DNA of 64,000 nt, from positions 286,866 through 350,865 of the forward strand of contig CP011209.1 in NCBI GenBank assembly GCA_001029635.1, written 5' to 3'. The notes beneath the pieces were generated by a model. That model did not search any database, was not told the DNA's origin, and saw only the letters and a program-made list of their open reading frames with translations. This DNA comes from Candidatus Wolfebacteria bacterium GW2011_GWB1_47_1 (lineage in GTDB: Bacteria > Patescibacteriota > Minisyncoccia > UBA6257 > UBA9933). A program made the position numbers and the translations under genes. Every line of letters starts with the position of its first letter. Positions within the stretch are counted from its first letter, which is position 1. Positions 1,208 to 16,785 of this stretch are shown here, piece by piece.

Positions 1208-1842
1208 GGATGATTTTGATGCGCAAGCGGATTGGCAACCAACTTGTTTGGTTTGCGGTAAAAATGAGGATGGATATAATGGCGGAGGCGACTTGTCGGG
1301 GACACCTATTAATTGGAGTTATTGGAGAAATGATGAATATTGGAATCCTGCGACTGGAGATCCGACCAAACAGCCGACTTTGAAAATCTCAACCGATCAA
1401 TATAGTGGTCAAGGTGGAAAATCTTTGCAAGTTTGGAATGAATCCAACAATGGACATAGTGGCGACGGTTGGGGAGCTGACGGCCAATTGGCTAAATATC
1501 TTGGCGGTGAATTTGATGATATTTTTCTGCAAATGAAAATAAAAATGTCGCCAACTTTTCAATTTAAACGGAATCATTAAATTTTGGCAAAATGGCAACC
1601 TTCTGTATGAGAGAAATGATATCGAGTGGGTTGGCGCTCAGGGTCAGGTTGGCGTGGGTTGGAATATGGTTTCATTGGGTGGTAATGCTTTCAATCTTTT
1701 TTCTGATACGGCAAATAAAGCTGAGCAATGGTATGCACTGGATGACGTGGTAGTGAGCACGGAATATCTGGGACCTGGTTATGTTATTGGAAGTTTGGAT
1801 GCAACAGCTCCTGCCTCGCCAACAGGACTGAGTGTGGAATAA
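1083..1842 (+). pseudogene. Short frameshifted member of the secreted tag family
   Basis: Frame 0 encodes a signal peptide plus ATIIFEDDFDAQADW (1083..1580). Frame +1 continues ...NGIIKFWQNGNLLYERNDIEWVGAQ... and ends ATAPASPTGLSVE* (..1842). A single-base indel near 1560-1575 is inferred. The probable true ATG is 1122. Confidence 0.55.
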
Positions 1843-1908: not shown

Positions 1909-3012
1909 ATGCTAACAAAAATGCAAAAACAAATTTTCAAAATCTTTTTCTTTCTTGCAGTATTTTTTATGCTGCCTAATTTTTCCCAGGCCGCAATTAT
2001 TTTTGAGGATAATTTTGATTCTCGAGACGATTGGAGCGTGCCCTATAATGATCTGGATCAGACTTGCAATAGGGAGGTGGGATGTACCGATGTTCCTGAC
2101 GGGTATTATGGTTATTATATTTCGCATTCAGTGATAACTCCCGCGACAGGAAACGGTTTGCATCTTGATAATATCAATAAAAGAGGTAATTCCGGCAAGG
2201 GTGTTACTTTTTGGGATCAAACTGATGGAACTGGCAATTGGGCGTCTGGAATGCAAATAGGTCTGGATTTTCCGCCACAAAATGAAATATACGTTCAGTA
2301 TTGGATCAAGATGCAACCGAATTATTCATATTACAAAGGAACCTATGCATCAATGCTGCGTAAAATGAATCACATTAGTCATTATTTATATAATGGTAAG
2401 CCGTTCACATTTTTCAGCGACGGAGGTTTTTTCCCAACAACCGTAAATCAAATCAGGTTTGCCAATGCAGGCAATGCGAATATTCAGAATTTCTTTTTTA
2501 TCCGGCCTGACCCGAGTTATAGCGGAACGCAGCCAGTTCCAATTATAACCAGAGGGATAAAGGACAGCACCAATACTGGGATATATAATTATTTTGATCT
2601 GCCTTCGGATGGACTGCCGATAGGAAATTGGGAGGGAACCGGCACCGAATATAATTCCCTGGGTATGTTTGCTGACGGGCAATGGCATTTGCTGGGATAT
2701 TATTTGAAAAACAACAGTGCGCCAGGAGTAGCTGATGGAACATATAAATTCTGGTATGACGGTAATATTCAGATTGATGCGACTGGCTTCATGTTTAGAG
2801 AAGCGTCTTCGACCTTGCCGGATGATATTTGGAACTTCTTGCACATCGGCGGGAATGCAATCAATCCATTTTTGGGAGCAGGAATTTCAGGTGAGCAGTG
2901 GTATGCAGTTGATGACGTGGCAGTGAGCACGGAATATTTAGGACCCGATTATATTATTGGAAGTTTGGATGCAACAGCTCCGGCCTCGCCAAGTGGATTG
3001 AGTGTGGAATGA
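1909..3012 (+). CDS. Secreted tag-family protein (jelly-roll/lectin-like core)
   Basis: Signal peptide MQKQIFKIFFFLAVFFMLPNFSQA, then AIIFEDNFD. Conserved WH..Y..KNNSAPGVADG and C-terminal tag ATAPASPSGLSVE*. Confidence 0.75.
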   Translation: MLTKMQKQIFKIFFFLAVFFMLPNFSQAAIIFEDNFDSRDDWSVPYNDLDQTCNREVGCTDVPDGYYGYYISHSVITPATGNGLHLDNINKRGNSGKGVTFWDQTDGTGNWASGMQIGLDFPPQNEIYVQYWIKMQPNYSYYKGTYASMLRKMNHISHYLYNGKPFTFFSDGGFFPTTVNQIRFANAGNANIQNFFFIRPDPSYSGTQPVPIITRGIKDSTNTGIYNYFDLPSDGLPIGNWEGTGTEYNSLGMFADGQWHLLGYYLKNNSAPGVADGTYKFWYDGNIQIDATGFMFREASSTLPDDIWNFLHIGGNAINPFLGAGISGEQWYAVDDVAVSTEYLGPDYIIGSLDATAPASPSGLSVE

Positions 3013-3064: not shown

Positions 3065-3261
3065 AGAATATATAAAAGTTTATAAGGTAGGATGCAAAAT
3101 ACAAAGATACAAGATACGGAATACTTGATAATAAATACCGGGTTCAAAATATCACTAAAAAGTGGTATAATTGAACATATAGAAATTGATTTGTTACTTA
3201 ACATGTTACGTAACTCGTCTTAACTAAAGTCGTGCCAAGGCAGGCATGCTACGTAACAAAA

Positions 3262-5181
3262 ATGCAAAAACAAATACTAAAATTATTATTCCTGTCGGTA
3301 TTTTTTTTAATGCCACTTTTTGTCAGTGCTGATGTCAACACGATTATTCCTGATCCTGCCAATGTGACTGCATGCGGCACGCTTAATCAAGCCGGCGCAA
3401 CTTATGTTTTGCAGAATGATGTCAGTTCCGAAGGGAGCTGCTTTGCGATTGTGGCCAGTGGAATAACTCTGGATCTGAACGGTCATACTGTGACTTATGA
3501 CAATGGAACGCCGATAAATATTATGAATGGAAGCTTTGAGGATGAATTGGCTGGGTCTTGGGACACGGTTAATGCGCAAAATTTCTTGAGGTCTGCTGGA
3601 ACATATGTCAGTCCGGTTTCTGTGTATGCTGGATCGTACGCGCTAAAAGCTATTACTCCGACTCCGGATCAAGTCGTTACTTCACTTGGCACGGTGACGC
3701 TGGCTCCAAATACGCGCTATAGTCTGTCGGGAATGGTCTACAATCGGGTCAGTGACAACATCTTAATGTCAATTGAATTTACCGACACCATGAAAGCTAT
3801 CCAGACTGGAATCACGGATAGGGGATTTCAATATATAACATATGAATTCGTAACTGGAGACAGTGAAGAGACATACAATATTGCATTAAAAGTGACGGGC
3901 GCCGCCGCGGTCGGCACGGGCGCGGTTTATTTTGATGATATCAAGATTCAGCGCAATCGATTGGCAGGAGTTATGGTTGGTCCTGTGGAATGGCGAGTTG
4001 CATGGCAATCGCGCGGGTTTGATATAAAGAATTATGGAGGCGCTAATAATACCACAGTTAAGGACGGCAGCATAATACAAGGCAGTGGAAAAAGTGACTG
4101 GTCACACGCCTTAGCGAGCGAAAGCAACAGCGTTTCCGGTCACACATTCAGCGGACTGAATATCACAACAAACGGCGCAAATTCCTCAGCTATTTTGATG
4201 GATAGTTTGCAGAATGGAGAAATAAAATACAATACTTTGGCTGCTAATATGCCTGCGATTAAGTCAAGAGATCAACTGGATGGAGCTGTTTTGAGAGCGG
4301 ATGGATATAATAGTTTTATACACGATAATGTCATCACAAATGGTGTTCAAGGTGGCATTTTGGCTGGCACTGCGGTCGGTCAACTTCCGCAAGAAATTTA
4401 TAACAACAACATCACTCTGCAAGGAAGATATACTAATGGTTTTGCGATTTCTGGGAATAAAAGCATTATAAGAAATAATACTATTAATTGCGGAAGCGGT
4501 AATAATTCTTGTCGAGGCATCTTTATCGGGTCTGAATCCGAAGTATTCGATAATATTGTAGAAGTTCAAGATATACCCCGCAATCAGGAATACAATGGTT
4601 GTCAGGGGTATGGAACATATGGCATTCAGATGGAGTCTGCTGAAAACAGCGATGTTTATGGAAATGTCGTTACGGCAAATTCGCCAAATGAATGCCCTGC
4701 CACTGCTTTTCGCGCCAACCCGCAAGACGGATCAATAGCTTCTATCAATAATTTGATTCATCACAATACTTTCATTGCCTATGCTTCGGGTAGTGCCAGG
4801 GCAACGTCCCTTAAGTTATCAGGTTGTGATAACTCGATGATTTCAATTTATAGCAACACCTTCAGAACAAACAGGCGATGGATTTATGCTGAATTTGATG
4901 GCATGGTCGATGGATTGCGCTTGGTTAACAACAGATGGGAGACTTTCGGATCAATTGATGAGCCTTTTTACCCGTTTGAAAATTTTGTGTGGGATGGAAG
5001 TTTCGTTAAGGATATGGTGTTTGAAAATAATGTTTATGGGGCGGGAGATAAAGAAAGATTTGAATCTGAATTTTTTAGAAAAACTACTGTTTGGCCGGAA
5101 ATAGAAACCCTTTCGAATTTCTCTGTCATATTTTCAGATGTGACAGCGCCAGCCTCGCCAACAGGTCTCGGCGTAATGTAA
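3262..5181 (+). CDS. Secreted tag-family protein with a CBM4/9-like module and parallel beta-helix repeats
   Basis: ORF track 3232..5181; the family signal peptide MQKQILKLLFL begins at 3262. NGSFEDELAGSWD is CBM-like. Repeated N.IT.N.I beta-helix motifs. Tail DVTAPASPTGLGVM*. Confidence 0.7.
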   Translation: MQKQILKLLFLSVFFLMPLFVSADVNTIIPDPANVTACGTLNQAGATYVLQNDVSSEGSCFAIVASGITLDLNGHTVTYDNGTPINIMNGSFEDELAGSWDTVNAQNFLRSAGTYVSPVSVYAGSYALKAITPTPDQVVTSLGTVTLAPNTRYSLSGMVYNRVSDNILMSIEFTDTMKAIQTGITDRGFQYITYEFVTGDSEETYNIALKVTGAAAVGTGAVYFDDIKIQRNRLAGVMVGPVEWRVAWQSRGFDIKNYGGANNTTVKDGSIIQGSGKSDWSHALASESNSVSGHTFSGLNITTNGANSSAILMDSLQNGEIKYNTLAANMPAIKSRDQLDGAVLRADGYNSFIHDNVITNGVQGGILAGTAVGQLPQEIYNNNITLQGRYTNGFAISGNKSIIRNNTINCGSGNNSCRGIFIGSESEVFDNIVEVQDIPRNQEYNGCQGYGTYGIQMESAENSDVYGNVVTANSPNECPATAFRANPQDGSIASINNLIHHNTFIAYASGSARATSLKLSGCDNSMISIYSNTFRTNRRWIYAEFDGMVDGLRLVNNRWETFGSIDEPFYPFENFVWDGSFVKDMVFENNVYGAGDKERFESEFFRKTTVWPEIETLSNFSVIFSDVTAPASPTGLGVM

Positions 5182-5331: not shown

Positions 5332-6885
5332 ATGCAAAAACAAATTCTAAAATTTTTCTTCCTACTTGCAATATTTTTCTTGCTACCAAATTTTGCAAGT
5401 GCAGCTGATTTTCATATTGGGACAGGGCAACCATACGCAACTATTGGTTCCTTCGCGTGGTCTTCATTGGTCGCAGGAGATACAGTTTATATCCATGCCA
5501 GGGATAATCAGGAACCATATTACGAACATTTATATGTAAGTGCGGCATTGCAAGGAACCGAGCAGAATCCAATCAATATAATTGGTGTCAATGATGGATC
5601 AGGAAATCAGCCAATTCTCGATGGTAGAAATTCCACAACAGGTCCCAATTTTGATGCTTATGGTGATTCACAATACCATTCTCGGTTGGGTATTGTTTTT
5701 TTTGGTCCCAGTGAAACAGCAGGGTATGGTTCAGCGCCGCAATGGATAACGTTATCAAATATTAAAATTCAAAATTATAGAAATGTTTCTACTACTGATG
5801 AGATTGGGGTGACGACAAATGATGTTAGCGGCAGTTGTGTTTATTTGCAAGGAGGACAACAAATAACATTGGACAAATTAACGATCACGGGATGCGCCGA
5901 TGGTATTTTTGGCAAAGATAACGATTTTCCTGTTAGGTATATAACACTACAAAATTCATCTATTTATGATAATGGTGTTGTTGATGATTATCTTTATCAT
6001 AATATTTATACCGAAGTTAAATATCTGACAATGCAGTATAATCATTTTGGACCTACTGTTAATGGTTCTCCTGGAAACAACATTAAGGATAGAAGTGTGG
6101 GTTTCGTATTTCGTTATAATTGGGTTGACGGTGGAGCGCACCTTTTGGATATTGTGGAATGTCAAGATAACTGCGCAAATCATACTTCTGATCCTGCCTG
6201 GGATGACGTTTTTGTCTACGGTAACATCTTTTATGCTGGTCCTGGCTCTGCCTCTCAACTTTTTCATCTCGGAACAGGTGATACTGGAGCCTTAGCATCT
6301 TCTTGGCGCAAAAATTTATATTTTTATAATAATACTATTGATTATGAGAGAAATCAGAGCGACGTGTATTATATGAACATATTCCAACTTAGTGGAGATC
6401 AGCAAACTGTTTATTTTGACAATAATATATTTTTTGCGCAGCCGGAAACGGTTGGCCAGGCGCACTCTGACGTGTATTTGCAATACGATGGTTCAGCTGC
6501 TCCGTCTGCATATGGCAATATGATTATTGGAAAAAACTGGATTTCTCCTGATTGGAGTGTGACCAAGCCAGGTGTCACGCCAACTGGTATTATTTCTGGA
6601 GCGTTAAATATAATTTCACCGGCTGGAAATGATCCGTATTTTATTGATTCCGCTACGGGTGATTATCACCTCATGTCATCCTCTGGTGCAATTGGTGTTG
6701 CAAGTTCTTTACCAGCCTTGATTAGTTCAGGAAATGCGCTTGGGTATGATTTTACACCAGTAAAACAATACATAAACCATCAATTATTTGAAAATAGACT
6801 AAACATTTCAGATCTGGGCGCTTATCAATATGCTATTGATGATATTGTTGCCCCTGCCGCGCCAATGGGATTGGGTGTGATATAG
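5332..6885 (+). CDS. Secreted tag-family protein with a right-handed beta-helix (pectate-lyase-like fold)
   Basis: Signal peptide MQKQILKFFFLLAIFFLLPNFASA. NIKIQNY, TITGCADGIF and LQNSSIYDNG beta-helix repeats. Tail DDIVAPAAPMGLGVI*. Confidence 0.7.
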   Translation: MQKQILKFFFLLAIFFLLPNFASAADFHIGTGQPYATIGSFAWSSLVAGDTVYIHARDNQEPYYEHLYVSAALQGTEQNPINIIGVNDGSGNQPILDGRNSTTGPNFDAYGDSQYHSRLGIVFFGPSETAGYGSAPQWITLSNIKIQNYRNVSTTDEIGVTTNDVSGSCVYLQGGQQITLDKLTITGCADGIFGKDNDFPVRYITLQNSSIYDNGVVDDYLYHNIYTEVKYLTMQYNHFGPTVNGSPGNNIKDRSVGFVFRYNWVDGGAHLLDIVECQDNCANHTSDPAWDDVFVYGNIFYAGPGSASQLFHLGTGDTGALASSWRKNLYFYNNTIDYERNQSDVYYMNIFQLSGDQQTVYFDNNIFFAQPETVGQAHSDVYLQYDGSAAPSAYGNMIIGKNWISPDWSVTKPGVTPTGIISGALNIISPAGNDPYFIDSATGDYHLMSSSGAIGVASSLPALISSGNALGYDFTPVKQYINHQLFENRLNISDLGAYQYAIDDIVAPAAPMGLGVI

Positions 6886-6926: not shown

Positions 6927-8648
6927 ATGCAAAATAAAAACTTAAAATTATATCTTTTCCTTGCGATATTCTTCTTGTTGCCTAATTTTGCGAATGCATT
7001 TGGTAATCCGGTGAGTTTTTATAATATCCAACCGTATACAAAAGGCACAAGTTCGAATTTCCCATTGTATCCAAAATCAACAGCACTGGAGCCGCAAAAG
7101 GGTCAATGTGTTTATGATGAAAATTATGGCAGTGAAGTTTGCAAAGTTGCTGATACCTCTGAATTTACAGTTGGGCAAATAGGGGATGCGGTCAGGCCTC
7201 CCTATAGTCGCTGGAGAATAGATAGTAGCGATGGAAGCAAATATTTCTTGCTTAAGGATGGTGAAACTCCCGCCGGCAGTGGAAAAGGTCAGACGGTTAT
7301 TTTTAATTCTGCGGATGATTCGATTCATAAGATAATAACTGAAATAAATAGTGGTGAGCCGCGCGAACTTCGTTGGGACTATTCAGGCACCAAGCAGAAT
7401 TCTATGTATTATGTTTCTGGATGCACCTTTTATGAATATGATATTGTTTCAGGTTTAAGTACTATTGTGCACAATTTTGGAAATGATTTTGCAAATTGTG
7501 GGAGAATTTTAAACGACGTGGAAGGCGATTCGTCCAGTGATTCCCGCTATTGGGCGTTTATGATTCAGAATCCTTATGATGGCAGTAAATATCCTATGCG
7601 TGCGATTGTTACTTATGACAAGCAAACCGATTCTATTTTAGGAACTTTGGATTATGCAGCCTATGCCGCAGCTGGGGGCACTTCAGAAAGTATGCCCACC
7701 CCTAATATGGTGGATATTTCACCGTTAGGAAATAAGGTTGTTTTGTTGAATGGGCGCTCATGGGGAGCGGTTGTGACAATTACTGGACCTTGGACAGATG
7801 AAGGTGTTGGAGTTTGGAGTTCTCCATATCAGTCCCTTACTAACGGAAATAATGCTTTTAATTGGGTTAAGGTCGATGGCGTTATATTGACTAGTAAAAC
7901 TCCTATAGATGGTGATAGACAATGGACGCGCGTAAGTGCTGAGAATAAATTGTATGTGAGATTGACTGGCGGAGAGAGTCCTGCTTCGCATAGCATCACA
8001 CTGGAATATGGGAAACGTCCTAATGATTTGAATTCAATTTTTGATGGTCCTCATGCTTTTGCTTTTGATTTTTCTAGTCCGGTGAAAGTTTGCAACGACG
8101 AAACTCACGGTGGATGGGCTTTTGATTTGAATGGTAATGAAGTGTATGTCTGTCAAGTCAATAATGGAAATTGGGCAAACGCTGATGGAGACACTATTGC
8201 TTATACTGATATTTTAACTGGGCAAACGAATACTATCATGTATCATAGCGACATTGGATGGGACGTAGGAGGATGGCACTTTGGTAGATTTTACAATAGT
8301 AACATACGTGGTTGGGTGTATATGACAAGTTATAGCAACAGTGATACAAGTTTAAGTTGGATGCGCAATCAGGCGTTTATGCTGGAGCTAAAACCATTCG
8401 CAGAACACCCCAGAGTTTGGCGCATTGCAGATACGCACAATAATTATCCTGGAGCTGCTGCTTATAAGCGTGAAGCATTTTCGCCGATAACACGTGATGG
8501 TTTGAAGATTTATTGGGGCTCGGATTGGCCTGGAGGTAATGGAACAGTGGATACATATTCAGTGCGTCTTCCTGATAATTGGTGGAATGTTCTTAATGGA
8601 AATGATGAAATTGCACCCGCTGCGCCAAGTGGTTTAGCAGTTCAATAA
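6927..8648 (+). CDS. Secreted tag-family protein with a large unknown core
   Basis: Signal peptide MQNKNLKLYLFLAIFFLLPNFANA. Tail DEIAPAAPSGLAVQ*. Confidence 0.65.
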   Translation: MQNKNLKLYLFLAIFFLLPNFANAFGNPVSFYNIQPYTKGTSSNFPLYPKSTALEPQKGQCVYDENYGSEVCKVADTSEFTVGQIGDAVRPPYSRWRIDSSDGSKYFLLKDGETPAGSGKGQTVIFNSADDSIHKIITEINSGEPRELRWDYSGTKQNSMYYVSGCTFYEYDIVSGLSTIVHNFGNDFANCGRILNDVEGDSSSDSRYWAFMIQNPYDGSKYPMRAIVTYDKQTDSILGTLDYAAYAAAGGTSESMPTPNMVDISPLGNKVVLLNGRSWGAVVTITGPWTDEGVGVWSSPYQSLTNGNNAFNWVKVDGVILTSKTPIDGDRQWTRVSAENKLYVRLTGGESPASHSITLEYGKRPNDLNSIFDGPHAFAFDFSSPVKVCNDETHGGWAFDLNGNEVYVCQVNNGNWANADGDTIAYTDILTGQTNTIMYHSDIGWDVGGWHFGRFYNSNIRGWVYMTSYSNSDTSLSWMRNQAFMLELKPFAEHPRVWRIADTHNNYPGAAAYKREAFSPITRDGLKIYWGSDWPGGNGTVDTYSVRLPDNWWNVLNGNDEIAPAAPSGLAVQ

Positions 8649-8652: not shown

Positions 8653-9768
8653 ATGAAATATAAATACTGCAAAACTTTTTTCTTGGCGGCAATATTTTTC
8701 ATGCTGCCTAATTTTGCAAATGCGGCTGTTGTTTGGGAAACTGATTTTGAAGATGCGGCTGACTGGTCTGCGGTGAGACCGTCTCCTTCGGGAATATCCT
8801 TTCCGAATTCTTGGACGCTAAAGCCGGGAGGGCCAAGCGTGGAACCTCCCAAGAAAAATGACGGTTCCTGGCTTCATCCCAATAGTTGGAGCAGAATTGC
8901 GCCTTCGGTCCTTACGAATAACATTACCCCTATGGCAACTATTGGATCCGGACAGGGCAAAGACAATTCCAGGGGCATGACATACAACGTGGAAGTTTCC
9001 GGTGTTTCTGGTACTTGGAGTGGCGGAAGCCCGCTCACGATGTATTTGGGAGCTGATGGATATCCTGAGCTGTATGTTTCCATGTGGGTAAAATATGATT
9101 CAGAGTTCACTTGGCTACCTGCTAGCCCAGCTAGCGGTTCCCAGCAAAAATTAGTTTATATTTCCAGGCTTAATGTGCCGATAAGCGCTACTGCCGATGC
9201 TGATAACCATTCCAACGGACCGCTACATCCGTCCTGGCTTCCGCATTGGTATAATTATATTTCAGTTTCTCCGTACTATGCCTTTTATATGAACAGGTCA
9301 CAGCAATCCAATGGTTCCTTAGTGTCATATGATCAAACCAAGGACATGTGGTCAATACATCCTTCCTATTACCCGCTCAATGCTCCATTTAAATGGCCGG
9401 AATCCAACCCTCATATTGTGAGTGTGCAATCCGACGGGTGGTGGCACCATTACGAATATCACATTAAAATGAATTCCGCTCCCGGCGTAGCTGATGGCGT
9501 GCAGGAAGTTTGGTTGGATGGCATCAAGAGGTTTTCCAAAAGTGACATGCCTTTTGTACTGGATGGAGGAAGCACTGCAACCGGATGGAACTATGTGGAA
9601 CTTTTTGATAATACCAATATTCTTTCCCATCCTGCATCTGAAAATGTGACGTATCCTATATATATCGATGATGTAGCGATCGGCACCACGTATGCCGGTC
9701 AAAACTATGTTATTGGAGGTATTGATGTGATTGCTCCTGCCGCACCAACTGGATTAGGGGTGGAATAA
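8653..9768 (+). CDS. Secreted tag-family protein (jelly-roll), full-length paralog of the partial gene at the window start
   Basis: Signal peptide MKYKYCKTFFLAAIFFMLPNFANA plus AVVWETDFEDAADW. Tail IDVIAPAAPTGLGVE*. Sits 4 bp after the previous gene. Confidence 0.75.
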   Translation: MKYKYCKTFFLAAIFFMLPNFANAAVVWETDFEDAADWSAVRPSPSGISFPNSWTLKPGGPSVEPPKKNDGSWLHPNSWSRIAPSVLTNNITPMATIGSGQGKDNSRGMTYNVEVSGVSGTWSGGSPLTMYLGADGYPELYVSMWVKYDSEFTWLPASPASGSQQKLVYISRLNVPISATADADNHSNGPLHPSWLPHWYNYISVSPYYAFYMNRSQQSNGSLVSYDQTKDMWSIHPSYYPLNAPFKWPESNPHIVSVQSDGWWHHYEYHIKMNSAPGVADGVQEVWLDGIKRFSKSDMPFVLDGGSTATGWNYVELFDNTNILSHPASENVTYPIYIDDVAIGTTYAGQNYVIGGIDVIAPAAPTGLGVE

Positions 9769-9811
9769 TTGGATGGGCGTTAAAATAGGTGTCCAGATAG
9801 ACGCCTTAATT

Positions 9812-10852
9812 ATGCAAAAACAAATTCTTAAAATCTTTTTCTTTAGCGCGATATTTTTTGCAGTGCCTAATTCTTCCCAGGCCACGATTATTTTTGAAGA
9901 TAACTTCGATGATTCTCCTGATTGGCAGTCGCAGCAAACTGTTGCCAAATCTGTTGGTGGGAATGATCGGGCATGGCCAGCGACTTATGTCGATGCCTGC
10001 TCAAGCGCGTGTCCCCCTCAAAGATGGACGGCTTACAGAGCGAGTGCTTCTTATTTTACTGATACTCCCGGCAATGACACGTATGTTCTCAATACAGATG
10101 GTGCTCGTGGCGGCAGTGGAAAAGGCATCACGCTTAATGTTGAATCAACTGGCAGCTATGGCGATTGGGCGGGCGGATCTCTTGATTTGTCCTTAGGCTC
10201 AGTTGGATACCAAGAACTTTTTGTGAAGTACTGGCTTAAGTATGATTCAAATTGGCTTTGGACAAATCCTGGCAATACTCAACACGGTCAGCAAAAATTG
10301 ATCCGAATTTCCAGGTTTAGCGGAGACATAAATGATTATAATAATCATAATCCACAAATGTTTTTCACACCCACAGAAAATGGCCCTTCTTGGATGCCAG
10401 ATTGGTATTATAATAAGTCCTTCCCCCCAGCTTCATTTTTTTCAAGTGAGTTTTTTAACACTCAGGCGAATGGCTCAATAGGATACGGGCCGACTCAGAC
10501 ATTTGCATCACTCGTTTGGCCGTCTGACGGCGGGTGGCATAGCTATGAATTCAGGACAAAAATGAATAGTGCACCTGGTGCTGCGAATGGCGAATGGGAA
10601 ATCTGGATTGACGGTCAAAGCACCCCGGACAAGCATCAAGTGAAAACAGATGTTCTCTGGGTTGATTCAAATGGTTCAGTAACTCAAGGTTGGAATTATT
10701 TGATGTTTTTGGATAATATCACCGTGGCTCCTGCGCCACTCTCAGAAAAGAAAGAAATGCAGATATATATGGATGATGTGGTAGTGAGCACGACGCGGTT
10801 ATCTGCTGACATCATTGCTCCTGTCGCACCGAGTGGATTGAATGTGGAATAA
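9812..10852 (+). CDS. Secreted tag-family protein (jelly-roll)
   Basis: ORF track 9773..10852; the signal peptide MQKQILKIFFFSAIFFAVPNSSQA starts at 9812. Its 5' end is DNA-identical to gene 1122... Tail ADIIAPVAPSGLNVE*. Confidence 0.75.
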   Translation: MQKQILKIFFFSAIFFAVPNSSQATIIFEDNFDDSPDWQSQQTVAKSVGGNDRAWPATYVDACSSACPPQRWTAYRASASYFTDTPGNDTYVLNTDGARGGSGKGITLNVESTGSYGDWAGGSLDLSLGSVGYQELFVKYWLKYDSNWLWTNPGNTQHGQQKLIRISRFSGDINDYNNHNPQMFFTPTENGPSWMPDWYYNKSFPPASFFSSEFFNTQANGSIGYGPTQTFASLVWPSDGGWHSYEFRTKMNSAPGAANGEWEIWIDGQSTPDKHQVKTDVLWVDSNGSVTQGWNYLMFLDNITVAPAPLSEKKEMQIYMDDVVVSTTRLSADIIAPVAPSGLNVE

Positions 10853-11000: not shown

Positions 11001-12062
11001 ATGATAAAACAAATGCTGAAAACTTTTCTTTTTCTCGCGATGTTTTTCTTGCTGCCAAATTTTTCCCAGGCCGCAATTATCTTTGAGGATAATTTCAATG
11101 ATTCTCCCGATTGGCAATCGGCTGAGTCTTATCCGAGCACGAATGCCGGCTGGCCAAACACCTGGAAGGATAAACCAGGTGGTCCAAGTCAGCCCCCTCC
11201 GCAAAACTGGACGGCGTACAGTGCAGCTATCCCAAGATGGGACAGGGGTCCAACTTGGAAATTAGATGCTAGTGGTGCTCGAAATTCCGGAAAGGGTATC
11301 ACTTTTGCAGTTGAGGCTGTGCATACCTGGGCGGGCGGTGGTCTGGATTTATATCTGGGAAACGTTGGATATCAAGAATTATATGTACGGGGATATTACA
11401 AATATGATCCAGTAACTTTTCATTGGCCGACTATAAACAATGAAGGCATTAATAACGGGAATTATCATAAGATTGCCAGGATTTCCAGATATCAACTGGA
11501 GCCATCCTTGGTAAATAATCCGCAGCAATTTTTAGCTCCCAGTTATCAGGCGCCAACTTTCTATCCTGAGGTTGCAGTAAACACGGGCACTGGTTATCAA
11601 AATCCGCCAGATCTCAATGCTGTCCATTTTCTTGGCGCGCGCGTTTTTGATCCTGGCGCTGGCGATGCTTCGGCGGAAGATGTTTATACTCTGCCAATGC
11701 CATCGGATGGTGGTTGGCATAGTTATGAATTTAGGGTAAAGATGAACAGCGCGCCGGGCGTTGCGGATGGCGAATGGGAGGTGTGGGTTGATGATGGCGT
11801 AAATCCTTACCAGCATCATAAGCGGACTGGGCTTGCTTGGATCGGCGCCGATTCAGTAAATGGCCTTTCTCCTGGTTGGAACTGGGTTAATGCTTTGGAT
11901 AATATAACCATAAATCAAACAGGAACCATCTACGAGAACACGGAGATGAAAATATTTCTAGATGATTTTGTGATCAGTGATTCTTTTATTGGTAAGGATT
12001 ATGTGATTGGCACTGCTGATATTACCGCACCTGCCGCACCGACAGGATTAGGGGTGACGTAA
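11001..12062 (+). CDS. Secreted tag-family protein (jelly-roll)
   Basis: Signal peptide plus AIIFEDNFNDSPDWQSAE. WHSYEFRVKMNSAPGVADGEWEVWVDDG. Tail DITAPAAPTGLGVT*. An extended -10 box TGGTATAAT lies at 10985-10993. Confidence 0.75.
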   Translation: MIKQMLKTFLFLAMFFLLPNFSQAAIIFEDNFNDSPDWQSAESYPSTNAGWPNTWKDKPGGPSQPPPQNWTAYSAAIPRWDRGPTWKLDASGARNSGKGITFAVEAVHTWAGGGLDLYLGNVGYQELYVRGYYKYDPVTFHWPTINNEGINNGNYHKIARISRYQLEPSLVNNPQQFLAPSYQAPTFYPEVAVNTGTGYQNPPDLNAVHFLGARVFDPGAGDASAEDVYTLPMPSDGGWHSYEFRVKMNSAPGVADGEWEVWVDDGVNPYQHHKRTGLAWIGADSVNGLSPGWNWVNALDNITINQTGTIYENTEMKIFLDDFVISDSFIGKDYVIGTADITAPAAPTGLGVT

Positions 12063-12150
12063 ATTCATGTATAACGTATTTGGTATTATGTATGAAGTAT
12101 GAATAATATAAAATTCAAGATTTAAATACCTATTTAATACCCAACTAAAA

Positions 12151-13287
12151 ATGCCAAAGCAAACACTAAAAGCTTTTCTTTTTCTAGCGATGTTTTTCTT
12201 GTTGCCTAATTTTTCCCAGGCCGCAATTATTTTTGAGGATAATTTCAATGATTCTCCCGATTGGCAATCGGCCGAATCAAACCCCGGTGATAATGTGGAC
12301 TGGTTCAGTTCTTCTTGGATACGCAATCCATCTGGCCCACCGGAACCTCCCATGCAAAATTGGACTTCATATCGGACAGAAATTCCATTGGGTAACTCAG
12401 TGAAAAGATATATTTTAAGTGAAGAAGGGAAACGTGGAATAAGCGGAAAAGGGGTAACTTATAATGTGGAGAGCAGCGGGACGTGGTCGGGAGGTGGTCT
12501 GGATCTTTATCTTGGAAATACTGGATATCAGGAAATTTTTGTACGCTTTTATTTGCGTTATGATCCCGCGACTTGGGTGTGGGCACTGCGTGAAACTGGT
12601 TTAAATGGGGAAAAGCAGAAACTCATACGCATCTCGAGGTTAAAGGATGAGCCTACGGCCCAAACTGCATGGAATCCTCAGTTGTTTGACACTGCAGCGT
12701 CAGGTGGACATCAGATGCCAGTTTTATATCCGGATGTCAAAGAAAATAACGGCGCTGGTTATAATACCCCATCTGTAAATGGCTTGTATGGTTTGTATCT
12801 TGAATATACCAGGCGCTTTGATCCTGAATATGGAAGCGAATCCCCATCTGAAACAAGATCATTCCCCATGCCGTCTTTAGGATTGAAAAATTTTGTTCCT
12901 CCGACTTCAGGAACTGATTCAAGTACGGATTATTATAAAACTGATGGAGATTGGCATTCCTACGAATTCCGCGTGAAAATGAATAGCGCGCCAGGGGTGG
13001 CTGATGGAGAATGGGAAACTTGGGTTGATGGTGGGGAAAATCCTGCCCAGCATACATTAAAAATCGGAGTAGCTTGGGTTTCATCTGGAGGATCAGTAAG
13101 TCCAGGATGGAACTGGTTTACAGTGCTTGATAATGTGAATACAGCTACCGGTCTGCCAAACGGTACGATTATGAAGATGTACATGGATGATTTTGTAGTC
13201 AGTGATTCCTTTATTGGTAAAGATTATATCATCGGTACAGCTGATATCACCGCACCTGCAGCACCGACAGGGTTGGAGGTAATATAA
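12151..13287 (+). CDS. Secreted tag-family protein (jelly-roll)
   Basis: Close paralog of 11001..12062. Tail DITAPAAPTGLEVI*. Confidence 0.75.
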   Translation: MPKQTLKAFLFLAMFFLLPNFSQAAIIFEDNFNDSPDWQSAESNPGDNVDWFSSSWIRNPSGPPEPPMQNWTSYRTEIPLGNSVKRYILSEEGKRGISGKGVTYNVESSGTWSGGGLDLYLGNTGYQEIFVRFYLRYDPATWVWALRETGLNGEKQKLIRISRLKDEPTAQTAWNPQLFDTAASGGHQMPVLYPDVKENNGAGYNTPSVNGLYGLYLEYTRRFDPEYGSESPSETRSFPMPSLGLKNFVPPTSGTDSSTDYYKTDGDWHSYEFRVKMNSAPGVADGEWETWVDGGENPAQHTLKIGVAWVSSGGSVSPGWNWFTVLDNVNTATGLPNGTIMKMYMDDFVVSDSFIGKDYIIGTADITAPAAPTGLEVI

Positions 13288-13330
13288 TTAGATGGGTATT
13301 TAAATAAGTATCCAGATAGACGCCTTAATT

Positions 13331-14491
13331 ATGCGAAAACAAATTTTAAAATCAATTTTATTTCTGGGTACTTTTTTAATGCTGCCTAATTCTTCCCAGG
13401 CTGCGATTATTTTTGAGGATAATTTTGACGACACTCCCAATTGGCAATCGCAGCAGCTTACTTTCGGAGGCGGAGGGATCGCTTGGGGCACGCCAACTTT
13501 CCAGGGAACTTGCATTGGATATTGTCCGCCGCAAAATTGGACTTCATATCGTACTTCGCAATCTCTCTGGACGCCAAATGCTAGAGATACGTATCTTATC
13601 GATTCAAGCGGATCGCGCACAGTTAATGGTAAGGGTTTGACATATAACGTGGAGTCTAGTGGTGAATGGGGAACTTGGGCTGGCGGAGGAATTGATAAAT
13701 ATCTCGGCGTCACCGGTTATCCCGAGCTTTATGTTAGATTCTGGCTGAAGGAGTCGGCTGAATTTTGTTGGGGATCGGAAGCGTTAAATCTCAATGCCAT
13801 GGGAAAGTTAATAAGAATCAGCGCACTAAGACGGGATCCAACTAGTAATCCGAACATTTTCAATCCGCAACTCTATCCTTCATCCGATGTAAGCCCAACG
13901 CTGATTGGGAATGCATATCGCCGATTTCAGCCAAATTATGGCGTGCCTGCTCAATTCGATATGGAAGAAAGATATGCGCCTAATTATGAATATGGACCAC
14001 AGTGCACGTTTGGTCCGCAACCTTCCTCTTGCGCATCGGAAGCTCCCAGCGCGATAACTTTTCCGCATGACAATTCTGGGTATTGCGGCGATGACCAATG
14101 GCATAGCTATGAATATTATGTGAAACTTAATTCAGCCTTGGATGCGACCGATGGAATTTATAAAGCTTGGCTGGATGGAACTTTGGTGGCGCAAAAAAGT
14201 AATATTCCTTGGGTAAAATCCGGCACTGATACTAATGGCACTGCGATGACGTTGGATACTGGTTGGAATTGGGTGATGATCGCTGACAATATCGATTCAA
14301 CCGCTTACGCTAAATCTGACAACGTTGAGATGTCTAGATATATAGACGATGTGGTTATGTATACGCCGATGAACGGTTCTGAAATGGCGTGTGGTGGGGC
14401 ATGTATTGCCGGACGACTGCCGCTAACCTATTTACAATCAGGGCTTGATAGTACCCCTCCCTCCGCCCCGACAGGGCTTAGCATAGAATAG
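13331..14491 (+). CDS. Secreted tag-family protein (jelly-roll), the most divergent tag
   Basis: Signal peptide MRKQILKSILFLGTFLMLPNSSQA. Tail GLDSTPPSAPTGLSIE*. Confidence 0.7.
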   Translation: MRKQILKSILFLGTFLMLPNSSQAAIIFEDNFDDTPNWQSQQLTFGGGGIAWGTPTFQGTCIGYCPPQNWTSYRTSQSLWTPNARDTYLIDSSGSRTVNGKGLTYNVESSGEWGTWAGGGIDKYLGVTGYPELYVRFWLKESAEFCWGSEALNLNAMGKLIRISALRRDPTSNPNIFNPQLYPSSDVSPTLIGNAYRRFQPNYGVPAQFDMEERYAPNYEYGPQCTFGPQPSSCASEAPSAITFPHDNSGYCGDDQWHSYEYYVKLNSALDATDGIYKAWLDGTLVAQKSNIPWVKSGTDTNGTAMTLDTGWNWVMIADNIDSTAYAKSDNVEMSRYIDDVVMYTPMNGSEMACGGACIAGRLPLTYLQSGLDSTPPSAPTGLSIE

Positions 14492-14670: not shown

Positions 14671-15033
14671 ATGAATATACGATCAAAAAAAACAAGGATA
14701 TATCTAGTGGCGATTATGCTCGCGGTAGCTCTGACGGCACTGATCATGACAAACAGGAATGCATCCCGGGAGGAGGGGGGTGAAGCAATATTATCATGGA
14801 ATGCAAATAAGGAAACTGATGTGATAGGGTATCGAGTTTACTACGGAACGGAAAAGCGTACGGGGGAGTGTCCCCTGGGAGGGTATGCGGATAAGATAGA
14901 TGTGGGGAATAGGACGACACATACGGTGACGAATTTGGAAAAAGGAAAGCGATATTATTTCTCTACGACATCATATAATAAAGGAGGAAAGGAAAGCTGC
15001 TTCTCTCAGGAAGTAAGTAAAGAAATAAAATGA
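14671..15033 (+). CDS. Small membrane-anchored protein consisting of one Fn3 domain that lacks the A-strand
   Basis: N-terminal TM or signal anchor, then AILSWNANKETDVIGYRVYYG...GKRYYFSTTSYNKGG. This is a fibronectin-III domain starting at the B-strand. Confidence 0.6.
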   Translation: MNIRSKKTRIYLVAIMLAVALTALIMTNRNASREEGGEAILSWNANKETDVIGYRVYYGTEKRTGECPLGGYADKIDVGNRTTHTVTNLEKGKRYYFSTTSYNKGGKESCFSQEVSKEIK

Positions 15034-15078
15034 TCGTGGGCGGGATCAATAATACAAACACTATAAAACGCAATACAT

Positions 15079-16785
15079 ATGAACAAAAAAGCATTTATCG
15101 GTTTACTGACGTTCGTTTTGGGAATGATGGCAGTATCCCATGCGCATGCCGGAACGGCAACACTTACATGGAATGCCAATAACGAGTCGGATCTGTCCGG
15201 GTATAAGGTCTATTATGACACTACGTCTCATTCCGGGAATTGTCCAAGCGGGTTTGGGCTAAATGTAGTCAGTGTCGGCAATGTAACGACGCACACGTTC
15301 AATAATCTTACGGATGGACAAACATATTACTTTCAGGTAACGGCAATCGATACATCGAGCAATGAGAGTACATGCTCGGCGCAGGTGTCAAAGGTGATTG
15401 CCGCAACGGACACTACCACACCAATAACCACCGCATCGCCACTCGGCGGATCATACGCATCTGCGCAAACGGTGACGATGTCGGTCAACGAAACAGCAAC
15501 CGTTTACTACACGCTTGATGGTTCAACCCCAACGATTGCCTCAACGCAGTACACGGGTCCTATATCGATCACATCGACAAAGACACTCAAATATTTCGCA
15601 AAAGATACGGCAGGGAATAGTGAGGCAGTGAAGACACAGGCATATACGATCACAATTCCGGACACTACCGCACCAATAACCACCGCATCACCACTCGGCG
15701 GATCATACGCATCTGCGCAAACGGTGACGATGTCGGTCAACGAAACAGCAACCGTTTACTACACGCTCGACGGGACAACTCCGACCGTTGCTTCAACACA
15801 GTACACGGGTCCTGTATCGATCACATCGACAAAGACGCTCAAATATTTCGCAAAAGATACCGCAGGGAACAGCGAGGCAATAAAATCACAGACGTATGTT
15901 ATTACGATCGTATCGAGTGACACTACTGTGCCGTCGGTCCCGGAAAATCTTACGGCAACGCCGATCGCTCCAACGCTGATCAATCTCGCATGGAGCGCGA
16001 GTACGGACGATGTGGGAGTGACGCACTATAAAGTCTATCGCCATGATGTGGAAATCGCGACAGTAACCGGGTTAGCCTATTCGGATGAAGGACTCAGTCT
16101 TTCGACAGTGTATCGATATAGGATAGCCGCAGTTGACGCAGCCCTAAACACATCCGCTCGCTCAAATGAGGTAAGCGCGACAACGAGTGCGCTTCCGGTA
16201 GCCGCATCGGGAGGAGGATCATCGAGTGGTGGTGGGGGAGGAGGCGGAGGATCGTCAGCGAGTGTGACCCAATCACAACCTACGACCCCTGTACTATCTG
16301 GTACGACGCAACAAGCTACGACTACTGCGACACCCGTTGTTACTGTGATAACGACGGGATCTCAACAGGGAACGACGGTAACTGCCGGAAGCGGGGGAGG
16401 GCAATACTCCCAGTTCGGCGCATATGTAACAAGAAAGCATCTTGTGTACGGATCGCGAGGGGAAGACGTAAAAAAGCTCCAGGAGTTTCTTAGGGTAGAT
16501 GGATACCTTAAGGAAAGCGCAACCGGCTATTACGGAAAGGCGACACAAGCCGCCATTCAAAAGTTTCAACAAGAGCACGCAATCGCTGGACCGGGAAAGG
16601 ATGGATATGGTGAGGTGGGCATAAAAACACGTTCAGTCATGAATCAGCATTTAAATGGATCGGTAGCGGGGGTCGCAACGGCTACCGATACACAGGAGTT
16701 GTTAAAAAAGCAGATCGCGCTTTTGCAGCAAAAAGTCATCGAGCTACTCAAGCAGTTGGCTGAGATGCAAAAGAAGAGTCTATGA
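15079..16785 (+). CDS. Cell-wall-associated scaffold protein: signal peptide, Fn3 lacking A-strand, 2x 84-aa chitobiase-C-like repeats, complete Fn3, G/S/T-rich linker, peptidoglycan-binding domain, coiled coil
   Basis: MNKKAFIGLLTFVLGMMAVSHAHA|GTATLTWNAN... is Fn3 from the B-strand. TQYTGPISITSTKTLKYFAKDTAGNSE occurs twice. The second Fn3 has a full A-strand (DTTVPSVPENLTAT). PG_binding_1-like (GSRGEDVKKLQEFLRVDGYL..GYYGKATQAAIQKFQ). C-terminal heptad coiled coil. Confidence 0.7.
   Translation: MNKKAFIGLLTFVLGMMAVSHAHAGTATLTWNANNESDLSGYKVYYDTTSHSGNCPSGFGLNVVSVGNVTTHTFNNLTDGQTYYFQVTAIDTSSNESTCSAQVSKVIAATDTTTPITTASPLGGSYASAQTVTMSVNETATVYYTLDGSTPTIASTQYTGPISITSTKTLKYFAKDTAGNSEAVKTQAYTITIPDTTAPITTASPLGGSYASAQTVTMSVNETATVYYTLDGTTPTVASTQYTGPVSITSTKTLKYFAKDTAGNSEAIKSQTYVITIVSSDTTVPSVPENLTATPIAPTLINLAWSASTDDVGVTHYKVYRHDVEIATVTGLAYSDEGLSLSTVYRYRIAAVDAALNTSARSNEVSATTSALPVAASGGGSSSGGGGGGGGSSASVTQSQPTTPVLSGTTQQATTTATPVVTVITTGSQQGTTVTAGSGGGQYSQFGAYVTRKHLVYGSRGEDVKKLQEFLRVDGYLKESATGYYGKATQAAIQKFQQEHAIAGPGKDGYGEVGIKTRSVMNQHLNGSVAGVATATDTQELLKKQIALLQQKVIELLKQLAEMQKKSL
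15409..15912 (+). repeat. Near-identical tandem 252-bp direct repeat inside the scaffold gene (two 84-aa domain copies)
   Basis: 15409-15660 and 15661-15912 differ by only a few nucleotides. Confidence 0.8.

What the first reader, a model, noticed from the sequence alone, without database searches (positions are those of the whole stretch)
14671..16785. C-terminal tag equals an Fn3 A-strand, and the two adjacent Fn3 proteins start at the B-strand: candidate strand-complementation docking/display system
The tag pattern D-x-x-A-P-x-x-P-x-G-L-x-V matches the canonical first strand of bacterial fibronectin-III domains (PsAPtnLtvt). The internal complete Fn3 of the scaffold protein starts SDTTVPSVPENLTAT, the same register as ADITAPAAPTGLGVT. 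Both downstream proteins (14671, TM-anchored; 15079, signal peptide then GTATLTWNAN...) begin their N-terminal Fn3 exactly at the ..TLTWNAN.. B-strand, so they lack an A-strand. The 15079 protein also carries a peptidoglycan-binding domain and a coiled coil. The arrangement suggests the cargo proteins donate the missing beta-strand to anchored Fn3 domains lacking the A-strand, analogous to pilus donor-strand complementation or cohesin-dockerin display. It would be a cellulosome-like surface-display system built on a split Fn3.
Basis: inference. Interest (0 to 1): 0.9.

Follow-up and report, generated by a model that had tools for sequence, protein, structure and literature searches.

The report
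Orphan Fn3 strand tag and strandless Fn3 anchors
Eleven secreted proteins of a tiny Wolfebacteria-like bacterium each end in a conserved 14-residue piece that is the first strand of a fibronectin-III domain. The next two genes encode surface-anchored fibronectin-III domains that lack exactly that strand, so this is probably an undescribed way of clipping enzymes onto the cell surface, though binding has not been shown.

Summary
The window (Candidatus Wolfebacteria-like, CPR) holds 10 intact tandem genes plus one disrupted copy. Their N-terminal modules are unrelated, and all end in D-x-x-[AP]-P-x-[AS]-P-x-G-L-x-[VI]-x-stop. The next two genes (14671, 15079) encode Fn3 domains that start at strand B, right after a membrane helix or a signal-peptide cleavage site; an AF2 model shows six strands and no A strand.

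Evidence linking the two parts:
- A non-CPR homologue (P0009) carries the cargo module, the A strand and the same Fn3 subtype in one chain. The window's break point falls in the A-B loop.
- Tagged genes sit next to TM- or SP-Fn3ΔA genes in at least 15 independent loci.
- At least 20 Desulfobacterales-type proteins carry an N-terminal Fn3ΔA and the C-terminal tag in one chain. AF2 predicts that tag as a confident β-strand.
- Neither Pfam nor NCBIfam has a model for the tag, and no paper I found describes it.

Evidence against:
- A-strand-less N-terminal Fn3 domains of this subtype are common in many phyla that show no tags.
- Some internal repeats also lack strand A.
- No complex could be modelled.

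Verdict: docking by β-strand complementation is the best explanation (about 0.5), but unproven. It would be a new variant of a known principle.

The parts
32..1078 (+). Tagged cargo gene, 5' end cut by the window edge. Tag DMIAPAAPTGLGVE at 1034-1075.
1083..1842 (+). Disrupted (frameshifted) cargo copy. A 165-aa ORF runs 1083-1580; the tag DATAPASPTGLSVE at 1798-1839 is in another frame.
1909..3012 (+). Tagged cargo, 367 aa, weak PL14-like match. Tag at 2968-3009.
3232..5181 (+). Tagged cargo, 649 aa, module unrelated to the ~350-aa family. Tag at 5137-5178.
5332..6885 (+). Tagged cargo, 517 aa, weak right-handed beta-helix match. Tag at 6841-6882.
6927..8648 (+). Tagged cargo, 573 aa. Tag at 8604-8645.
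8653..9768 (+). Tagged cargo, 371 aa. Tag at 9724-9765.
9773..10852 (+). Tagged cargo, 359 aa. Tag at 10808-10849.
11001..12062 (+). Tagged cargo, 353 aa, used as the query for homologues. Tag at 12018-12059.
12151..13287 (+). Tagged cargo, 378 aa. Tag at 13243-13284.
13331..14491 (+). Tagged cargo, 386 aa, the last of the array. Tag DSTPPSAPTGLSIE at 14447-14488.
14671..15033 (+). Candidate membrane anchor, 120 aa. N-terminal TM helix at aa 4-29 in the model. The Fn3 lacking strand A spans aa 37-120 (nt 14779-15030).
15079..16785 (+). Candidate wall-bound scaffold, 568 aa. Signal peptide aa 1-24; the Fn3 lacking strand A starts at G25 (nt 15151). Then two CHB_HEX_C domains, a complete Fn3 from about aa 280, a G/S/T-rich linker, PG_binding_1 at aa 460-501 and a C-terminal coiled-coil-like tail.

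Best explanation
This is a two-part surface-display system built from a split fibronectin-III domain.

1. The cargo proteins are probably polysaccharide-active enzymes or binders. They are exported by Sec, using a conserved cleavable signal peptide.
2. Each cargo ends in a Pro-rich spacer (D-T-T-P-P-A-A-P) followed by a five-residue β-strand (G-L-x-V-x) and the free C-terminus. This is the linker plus A strand of an Fn3 domain.
3. The acceptors are Fn3 domains that begin at strand B. One is held on the membrane by an N-terminal TM helix (14671). The other is held on peptidoglycan through a PG_binding_1 domain (15079).
4. The tag is proposed to lie antiparallel along the free edge of strand B. 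Its L and V side chains would complete the hydrophobic core. This would tether the cargo non-covalently, with the cargo body at the pole of the Fn3 that points away from the membrane.

Shown: the anatomy, the homology of the tag to an A strand, the absence of strand A in the acceptors, the gene fission/fusion relationship, and the conserved neighbourhood.

Inferred: the physical insertion of the tag, its geometry, and surface retention as the purpose.
For: 1. The tag is an A strand and the split lies in the A-B loop.
   - P0009 residues 40-299 match cargo 11001 (52% identity, E = 6e-82).
   - P0009 residues 317-377 match 14671 from AILSW onward (E = 4e-9).
   - The 17 residues between them (PPPSPTSVTVQSTTAAT) correspond to the tag region.
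   - Joining the tag to the 14671 domain through a 3-aa spacer extends the Pfam fn3 match from profile position 17 to position 2 and raises the score from 33.2 to 39.5 bits. A scrambled tag joined directly (without the spacer) gives 35.0 bits with the match starting at position 11; the real tag joined directly, which is the like-for-like comparison, gives 34.1 bits starting at position 15, so the gain needs the spacer.
2. The acceptors lack strand A.
3. The neighbourhood is conserved, on the same strand and usually directly adjacent.
   - Loci seeded from the anchor: window, L003, L007, L012, L015, L016, L060, L009.
   - Loci seeded from the tag: L099, L114, L120, L122, L124, L098, L097/L149, L168.
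4. Both halves occur in one protein.
   - At least 20 proteins of ~210-310 aa have the architecture SP-Fn3ΔA-Big_7(x1-2)-DTTAPxPPxGVTVE-stop.
   - L084, L130/L142 and P0070 are further examples.
   - In the AF2 model of P0113 the tag is a β-strand (205-209). Its 10-residue block has pLDDT 92, equal to the Fn3ΔA part (90-95) and above Big_7 (73-84).
5. The tag is under selection. In 130 unique tails D, P, P, G, L and V are nearly invariant while the four residues before them vary freely. Codons differ between copies, and the cargo modules are unrelated.
6. The parts are interchangeable with a known docking pair. Cargo homologue P0015 carries a dockerin where the window has the tag. SP-Fn3ΔA-dockerin fusions exist in CPR.
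7. Donor-strand exchange has just been shown by cryo-EM in CPR pili (bioRxiv 10.64898/2026.03.03.709456).
Against:
- The same Fn3 subtype starts at strand B right after the signal peptide in most of ~64 non-CPR loci. Those proteins end in T9SS-like tails (by eye), dockerin-like repeats or TM anchors rather than being near tags.
- Some internal repeats of this subtype have no A strand at all (P0267, P0325), and AF2 folds 14671 confidently without one. The domain may therefore be stable and closed on its own.
- About half of the CPR anchor loci show no tagged gene within 10 kb (L001/2, L006, L008, L010, L011, L013, L014, L017).
- One 8-gene tag array (L089) ends without an anchor on its visible side.
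- Tags outnumber acceptor domains 11 to 2 in the window.
- No covariation between tag and anchor residues is visible in 12 loci.
- In the P0113 model the partner strand of the tag cannot be read, because no coordinates are returned. It could be the Big_7 domain, whose own first strand is modelled poorly.
Confidence: 0.5

Rival explanations
1. The tag and the Fn3ΔA proteins belong to one surface system, but the tag does not fill the A-strand position. It may bind another site, or another partner such as peptidoglycan, an S-layer or the CHB_HEX_C domains. Alternatively the small TM-Fn3ΔA protein may have a different role, such as a spacer or an assembly factor.
For: - The conserved synteny shows a link, not a binding mode.
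- Fn3ΔA appears stable on its own and is widespread without tags.
- Many tag arrays have no visible anchor nearby.
Against: - The tag is homologous to the very strand that the neighbouring domain lacks.
- Both halves recur together in single proteins of other phyla.
- No other conserved partner gene is seen across the loci.
Confidence: 0.2
2. The tag is a sorting, processing or modification signal, or simply a glycosylated Pro/Thr linker end. It would be read by an enzyme or by the envelope, not by a docking domain. The adjacency to Fn3 genes would reflect only a shared surface-protein gene cluster.
For: - The D-T-T-P-P-A-A-P-S/T segment resembles O-glycosylated linkers (my own knowledge).
- Both the tag and the signal peptide are conserved across unrelated cargos, as in dedicated sorting systems.
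- Tags are very abundant in metagenomes.
Against: - No TM segment or basic tail follows the motif, unlike LPXTG, PEP-CTERM, GlyGly-CTERM and similar signals (sequence).
- No NCBIfam or Pfam sorting-signal model matches.
- No sortase-, exosortase- or protease-like gene recurs beside the arrays.
- The most conserved positions are the alternating L and V of a β-strand.
Confidence: 0.15
3. The tag is an evolutionary relic. An ancestral module-Fn3 protein lost strands B to G through a premature stop, and the stub was inherited by the paralogues without a function of its own.
For: Homologues with the full Fn3 exist. Part of the array consists of paralogues, and there are signs of recent duplication or gene conversion.
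Against: - The stub is present on non-homologous modules and ends at the same residue in 130 distinct tails from many lineages.
- Six positions are near-invariant while the flanking residues vary.
- Codons have diverged. A functionless 14-aa tail would not be kept like this.
Confidence: 0.07
4. The tag is an artefact or a recoding product. The stop after the tag would be read through, or a frameshift or recombination would join the cargo to a downstream Fn3, so the true products are ordinary module-Fn3 proteins.
For: None beyond the resemblance to a truncated domain.
Against: - All three stop codons are used.
- The next gene starts 4-150 nt later with its own signal peptide.
- No frame downstream of any tag continues an Fn3.
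- The tag DNA is not conserved enough to act as a recombination site.
Confidence: 0.02

Closest known systems
Chaperone-usher pilus donor-strand complementation/exchange (Pap/Fim; established knowledge)
   Same: An incomplete Ig-like β-sandwich is completed in trans by a short terminal strand from another polypeptide, giving a very stable non-covalent link.
   Different: In those pili the missing strand is the C-terminal G strand and the donor is an N-terminal extension. Here the missing strand is the N-terminal A strand and the donor is a C-terminal tail. No chaperone or usher is seen. The product would be enzyme display, not a fibre.
Type V pili of Bacteroidia (FimA/Mfa1; established knowledge)
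   Same: A C-terminal strand of one subunit fills the groove left by a missing N-terminal strand of the next. This is the same polarity as proposed here.
   Different: In type V pili the vacancy is created by gingipain cleavage of a lipoprotein precursor, and the subunits polymerise. Here the acceptor is encoded without the strand and the donors are unrelated enzymes.
Pam pili of CPR bacteria (bioRxiv 10.64898/2026.03.03.709456)
   Same: Donor-strand exchange between Ig-like domains, shown by cryo-EM in CPR cells that have no outer membrane. The proposed chaperones and anchor are membrane-anchored, and the proposed anchor (PamR) has an Fn3-like fold.
   Different: Those are two-domain pilins with a linker strand and a truncated C-terminal Ig domain, found in Saccharimonadia and Microgenomatia, and they form filaments. 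No sequence relation to the window's proteins was tested.
Cohesin-dockerin (cellulosome)
   Same: A small C-terminal module on many different enzymes plugs into a receptor module on a membrane- or wall-anchored scaffold. Cargo homologue P0015 carries a dockerin at the tag position, and CPR relatives fuse Fn3ΔA to dockerins.
   Different: A dockerin is a ~60-aa Ca-binding fold that binds the face of a complete cohesin. Here a 14-aa peptide would complete an incomplete domain. No dockerin or cohesin was found in the window by Pfam on the cluster proteins or by a crude dockerin-motif scan.
Engineered split-domain pairs: SpyTag/SpyCatcher, and fragment complementation of Fn3 (monobody scaffold). 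Also anastellin, an Fn3 fragment lacking strands A and B that binds other Fn3 modules. All from my own knowledge; none was retrieved here.
   Same: A β-sandwich lacking one strand binds that strand when it is supplied as a peptide tag.
   Different: Those are man-made or proteolytic fragments. SpyTag additionally forms an isopeptide bond. The system here would be natural, genomically encoded and non-covalent.

Membership tests
Fibronectin type III domain (PF00041) | Significant match to the fn3 profile and a seven-strand β-sandwich | tested here: met
   14671 matches at E = 4.9e-8 and 15079 at E = 2.5e-14. The best PDB fold matches are Fn3 domains. However, only six strands are present: the profile match starts at position 9 and the model has no A strand.
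Chaperone-usher donor-strand systems | Acceptor lacks the C-terminal G strand; donor is an N-terminal extension | tested here: not met
   The acceptor lacks the N-terminal A strand and the candidate donor is C-terminal.
Chaperone-usher donor-strand systems | Dedicated periplasmic chaperone and outer-membrane usher encoded alongside | tested here: not met
   No such genes lie in the cluster at 1-16785 or beside the related arrays, and Pfam finds none among the cluster proteins. The rest of the window was not scanned for them.
Cohesin-dockerin | Dockerin (duplicated Ca-binding loop-helix) on the cargo | tested here: not met
   No Dockerin_1 match on any window cargo, and no dockerin-like motif in six frames. 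Homologues elsewhere do carry dockerins.
Cohesin-dockerin | Cohesin module on the scaffold | tested here: not met
   15079 holds Fn3, CHB_HEX_C and PG_binding_1 only. ORFs in L002 and L009 that looked cohesin-like by eye gave no Pfam or PDB match.
Known C-terminal sorting signals (LPXTG/sortase, PEP-CTERM/exosortase, GlyGly-CTERM, MYXO-CTERM, T9SS CTD) | Signature motif followed by a TM helix and basic tail, or an ~80-aa β-sandwich CTD | tested here: not met
   The protein ends one residue after the V of the tag, and no NCBIfam or Pfam model matches.
Type V pilus strand exchange | Lipoprotein precursor whose N-terminal strand is removed by a protease to open the groove | tested here: not met
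   14671 has an uncleaved TM anchor. 15079 has an ordinary A-x-A signal peptide and no lipobox. Strand A is absent from the gene, not removed afterwards.
Proposed split-Fn3 tag/acceptor pair (this report) | The tag physically occupies the A-strand position of Fn3ΔA | not testable with these tools
The AF2 model of the natural one-chain version shows the tag as a confident strand, but its partner cannot be read.
Proposed split-Fn3 tag/acceptor pair (this report) | Genomic co-occurrence of tags and Fn3ΔA genes | tested here: inconclusive
   Direct adjacency in at least 15 independent loci. About half of the CPR anchor loci, and most short tag-seeded contigs, show only one of the two parts. Whole-genome counts were not possible.

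The most novel reading that the evidence does not exclude
Patescibacteria (CPR), and in a one-chain form Desulfobacterales and others, use a natural 'tag/catcher' made from a split fibronectin-III domain.

- A 14-residue C-terminal orphan A strand, present on hundreds of secreted enzymes, completes A-strand-less Fn3 domains on membrane, wall or dockerin-bearing adaptors. This would be a new family of protein-docking modules that works alongside cohesin-dockerin.
- Where both halves sit on one subunit, the result would be head-to-tail fibres.
- The very common signal-peptide-then-strand-B Fn3 domains of Gram-negative phyla might then also be open acceptor sites.
Probability: 0.45. Interest if true: 0.88.

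Novelty: new variant of a known kind. Interest (0 to 1): 0.72.

Why it matters
CPR bacteria have tiny genomes and live attached to other cells. How they hold enzymes and adhesins on a surface that has no outer membrane is largely unknown.

- A single 14-aa tag shared by many unrelated secreted proteins, read by one or two small anchor proteins, would be an economical display system.
- It would give a function to a very abundant unannotated C-terminal motif.
- It would also give a function to a family of about 120-aa 'Fn3 domain proteins'.
- It would be a natural, small, non-covalent peptide/domain pair that could be useful for protein engineering.
- The idea is directly testable with a peptide and an ~85-residue domain.

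Tried and rejected
- **Library searches.** Pfam and NCBIfam have no model for the tag or the cargo family; only weak PL14 and beta-helix hits appear. PDB sequence searches found nothing for the cargos and no close solved structure of this Fn3 subtype.
- **Recombination site (shufflon-like cassette).** Rejected. The tags differ at synonymous sites and the acceptor genes have their own export signals.
- **Read-through or frameshift into an Fn3.** Rejected.
- **Cohesin in neighbouring genes.** ORFs in L002 and L009 looked cohesin-like by eye but have no Pfam or PDB support, so I dropped the claim.
- **Reciprocal test from the tag side.** Only 3-4 of 34-46 loci with enough downstream DNA show an anchor downstream. 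The test is weak because tagged genes come in long arrays and most contigs are 1-6 kb.
- **Covariation between tag end residue and anchor strands.** Searched in 12 loci; nothing visible.
- **The second short C-terminal tag (..L-x-x-P-T/S-F-stop) on cargo homologues.** One member checked (P0027) lies in a Gram-negative exosortase/EPS locus and is a different matter.
- **Literature.** Four full-text searches found no description of the tag.
Full report
**What is in the window**

The first 16.8 kb is one + strand gene cluster. Proteins identical or nearly identical to those of the window carry source names from Candidatus Wolfebacteria MAGs (GW2011_GWE1_48_7, GW2011_GWC1_47_10). The organism is therefore a Wolfebacteria-like member of the Candidate Phyla Radiation.

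Ten intact ORFs plus one disrupted copy encode secreted proteins. They share a strongly conserved signal peptide (MQKQILKxFFFLAxFFxLPNFSQA|A) and heterologous mature parts:
- a ~350-aa family with only a weak PL14-like match;
- two beta-helix-like proteins of 517 and 649 aa;
- a 573-aa protein.

Every one ends in D-x-x-[AP]-P-x-[AS]-P-x-G-L-x-[VI]-x and then a stop. A six-frame scan finds the motif nowhere else in the 64 kb. The copies differ at synonymous sites, so the peptide is conserved, not the DNA.

Two genes follow directly.
- **14671-15033** encodes 120 aa: a TM helix and one Fn3.
- **15079-16785** encodes 568 aa: signal peptide, Fn3, two CHB_HEX_C domains, a complete Fn3, a G/S/T-rich linker, PG_binding_1 and a coiled-coil-like tail.

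In both proteins the Pfam fn3 match starts at profile position 9 of 84. Mature 15079 begins GTATLTWNAN right after the AHA cleavage site. In 14671 only about ten residues separate the TM helix from GEAILSWNAN.

An AF2 model of 14671, built with an alignment of 21 homologues, has mean pLDDT 86. It shows a helix at 4-29 and six strands at 37-42, 51-59, 74-79, 83-89, 94-103 and 115-118. These are B, C, C', E, F and G; there is no A strand. Foldseek places the model among Fn3 domains. Neither ORF can be extended upstream.

**The tag is an Fn3 A strand, and the split lies in the A-B loop**

Homologues of cargo 11001 from other organisms (P0008, P0009, P0010, P0043) continue after the module into a full Fn3...YSGPPPSPTSVTVQSTTAATAQLSWTAG...GYRVYYG.

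For P0009, two pairwise comparisons define the break point.
- Residues 40-299 match the cargo (52% identity, E = 6e-82).
- Residues 317-377 match 14671 starting exactly at AQLSW/AILSW (37% identity, E = 4e-9).
- The 17 residues in between are the linker, the A strand and the A-B loop, which is the region the window's tag occupies.

P0009 is therefore a single-chain version of cargo plus acceptor.

Two further points agree with this.
- The tag is almost indistinguishable from the start of complete internal Fn3 domains in neighbouring scaffold proteins. An example is DTTAPTAPSGLSATAVSSSQINLTW in L122, next to the tags DTTAPAAPSGLSVQ.
- Joining the tag to the 14671 domain through three residues extends the Pfam match to profile position 2 and adds about 6 bits. 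A scrambled tag does not extend the match, but it was joined directly without the spacer; the real tag joined directly also fails to extend it (34.1 bits from position 15), so this small effect depends on the spacer.

**Evidence for a functional link**

*Seeding from the acceptor.* A genome scan with an Fn3ΔA alignment returned 80 loci. About 16 are CPR. Seven of them (L007, L009, L012, L015, L016, L060 and, via an earlier look-up, L003) carry 1-5 tag-terminated ORFs on the same strand as a TM- or SP-Fn3ΔA gene. In six of the seven the two are directly adjacent.

- 90 contigs have validated tag ORFs, often in tandem arrays of up to eight (L089).
- 10 also hold an Fn3ΔA gene on the same strand, again mostly adjacent (L099, L114, L120, L122, L124, L098, L097/L149, L168).
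- Across 130 distinct tails the consensus is D-[TIV]-[TVI]-[PA]-P-[AS]-[AS]-P-[ST]-G-L-x-V-x-COOH. D, P, P, G, L and V are nearly invariant, and the four preceding residues vary.

**Both halves in one chain**

A Desulfobacterales protein found in the genome scan (L020) has the architecture SP-Fn3ΔA-Big_7-DTTAPAPPRGVTVE-stop. No Fn3 continues in any frame after the stop.

Its homologues include at least 20 proteins of ~210-310 aa with the same architecture and an invariant tag. Some have two Big_7 domains between the halves. Further one-chain cases are L084, the ~100-aa proteins of L130/L142, and P0070. P0113 stands alone among housekeeping genes, so it needs no neighbour.

In the AF2 model of P0113:
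- the last residues (205-209, GVTVE) form a β-strand, and the last ten-residue block has pLDDT 92;
- this equals the Fn3ΔA part (90-95) and exceeds the Big_7 part (73-84);
- the interdomain linker scores about 40.

The tool returns no coordinates, so I cannot say which strand the tag pairs with. This result is supportive, not decisive.

**Connection with cohesin-dockerin logic**

One cargo homologue (P0015) has a dockerin where the window has the tag. In other CPR loci, small SP-Fn3ΔA-dockerin proteins sit beside other dockerin-bearing proteins (L001, L010, L014, L017). So the tag and the Fn3ΔA domain occupy positions that docking modules occupy elsewhere.

**What weakens the interpretation**

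- The Fn3 subtype (xxLxWxANxExDxxGY[KR][IV]YYG) begins two to four residues after a signal-peptide cleavage site in most of the ~64 non-CPR loci, which come from Deltaproteobacteria, Nitrospirota, KSB1, Acidobacteriota and others. Those proteins end in T9SS-like tails (by eye), dockerin-like repeats or TM anchors, and only two end in a tag.
- In long tandem arrays of the subtype the first copy lacks strand A while internal copies have it (P0192). In P0267 and P0325, however, internal copies lack it too. A six-stranded version of this domain is therefore common and probably stable, and AF2 is confident about it.
- About half of the CPR anchor loci show no tag within 10 kb. From the tag side the test is limited by short contigs and long arrays.
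- Tags outnumber acceptors 11 to 2 in the window.
- No covariation between tags and anchors was visible.

**Mechanism proposed**

Export is by Sec. The acceptor sits with its membrane-proximal pole holding both the start of strand B and the end of strand G, next to the TM helix. The cargo's Pro-rich spacer runs along the domain. The G-L-x-V-x strand pairs antiparallel with strand B and ends at the A-B loop position with the free carboxylate, leaving the cargo at the distal pole.

Everything after export is inference from Fn3 topology (established knowledge). No chaperone or catalyst is evident.

**Comparison with known systems**

It would work like donor-strand complementation in chaperone-usher pili. 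In polarity it is closer to type V pili, where a C-terminal donor fills an N-terminal-strand vacancy. In purpose it resembles cohesin-dockerin. It is a member of none of these; their defining features were tested and not met (see the membership table).

Donor-strand exchange in CPR itself was reported in 2026 for Pam pili, which use different proteins. No Pfam or NCBIfam model and no retrieved paper describes the tag.

**Verdict**

- The functional link between tag and Fn3ΔA genes is well supported.
- Strand complementation is the most economical mechanism, at about 0.5, but it is unproven.
- If true, it is a new variant of a known principle and a widespread one.
- Interest 0.72.

Noticed in passing
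window 1083-1842, compared with 9773-10852 and with the junctions 1075-1110 and 9765-9800: One cargo copy is disrupted: a 165-aa ORF is followed by a tag in another frame. Its first ~43 codons, and the preceding gene end plus spacer, are identical to those at 9768/9773. This points to a recent segmental duplication or gene conversion inside the array.
   Followed up: partly
window, first ~25 codons of all cargo genes (e.g. 1909, 5332, 11001, 12151, 13331): The signal peptide (MQKQILKxFFFLAxFFxLPNFSQA|AIIFEDNF) is about as conserved across unrelated cargo modules as the C-terminal tag. Both protein ends look like shared cassettes around variable middles.
   Followed up: no
P0017, P0018, P0020, P0022-P0027, P0029-P0032, P0036, P0039; locus L004/L005 10001-11035: A second group of cargo-module homologues ends in a different short tail (..L-x-x-P-[TS]-F-stop). 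The one member whose context was checked (P0027) lies in a Gram-negative exopolysaccharide locus with exosortase EpsH/EpsI genes.
   Followed up: partly
L020 9905-10558; P0072-P0113; L202 8001-8633: A Desulfobacterales-type family of ~210-aa proteins has the architecture signal peptide - Fn3 without strand A - Big_7 - invariant DTTAPxPPxGVTVE-stop. These could be self-complementing or head-to-tail polymerising subunits. In L020 the gene follows genes that by eye look like a T2SS/type IV pilus cluster. In L202 it stands alone among housekeeping genes.
   Followed up: partly
L001 1832-2335, L014 4594-5094, L017 7663-8163, L010 10901-11524: CPR genomes encode small proteins of signal peptide - Fn3 without strand A - dockerin, next to other dockerin-bearing proteins. 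They could act as adaptors between the two docking systems.
   Followed up: partly
P0051, P0053-P0057; L006 8009-8386, L009 9908-10297, L010 9845-10297, L013 9890-10288, L016 9881-10303, L114, L122: Many TM-anchored Fn3ΔA proteins carry a short conserved C-terminal tail ([IL]-S-[IF]-[FWL]-D-[KR]-[IV]-[KR]-x-[LF]-[FL]) after strand G. The window's 14671 lacks it. Its role is unknown; it may be an amphipathic membrane-binding helix.
   Followed up: no
window 14671-15033 (C61, C111 of the protein) and 15079-16785 (C54, C100); alignment A1: The CPR-type Fn3ΔA domains have a Cys in a GxCPxGGY insertion and, in most, a second in the ESCFS motif. The non-CPR relatives lack both. They probably form a disulfide.
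   Followed up: no
L007 1395-2681, L015 3901-4551, L127 4872-6136, L161 1-1259, L158 1223-2132: The same pair of small cytoplasmic-looking genes (~190 aa and ~230 aa; the second contains GFKGGTMFYYF...RFSVDLDFD) recurs between tagged cargo genes in several unrelated arrays. It may be a toxin-antitoxin or abortive-infection-like pair riding in these clusters.
   Followed up: no
L097 5716-6260, L149, L168 1-305: In G+C-rich non-CPR contigs, a protein ends in an Fn3 without strand A that follows a long Pro/Ala-rich linker. It lies upstream of a tag-terminated gene: directly adjacent in L168 (Fn3ΔA at position 63, tag ORF from 306) but about 2.7 kb away in L097/L149 (Fn3ΔA at 6028, tag ORF from 8761). 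The pairing is therefore not restricted to CPR.
   Followed up: no
P0192 (2612 aa), P0193 and other top hits: Giant proteins hold 19-47 tandem copies of this Fn3 subtype. In P0192 the first copy, right after the signal peptide, lacks strand A, while internal copies have D-x-T-P-P-x-x-P-x-I-... before strand B.
   Followed up: partly
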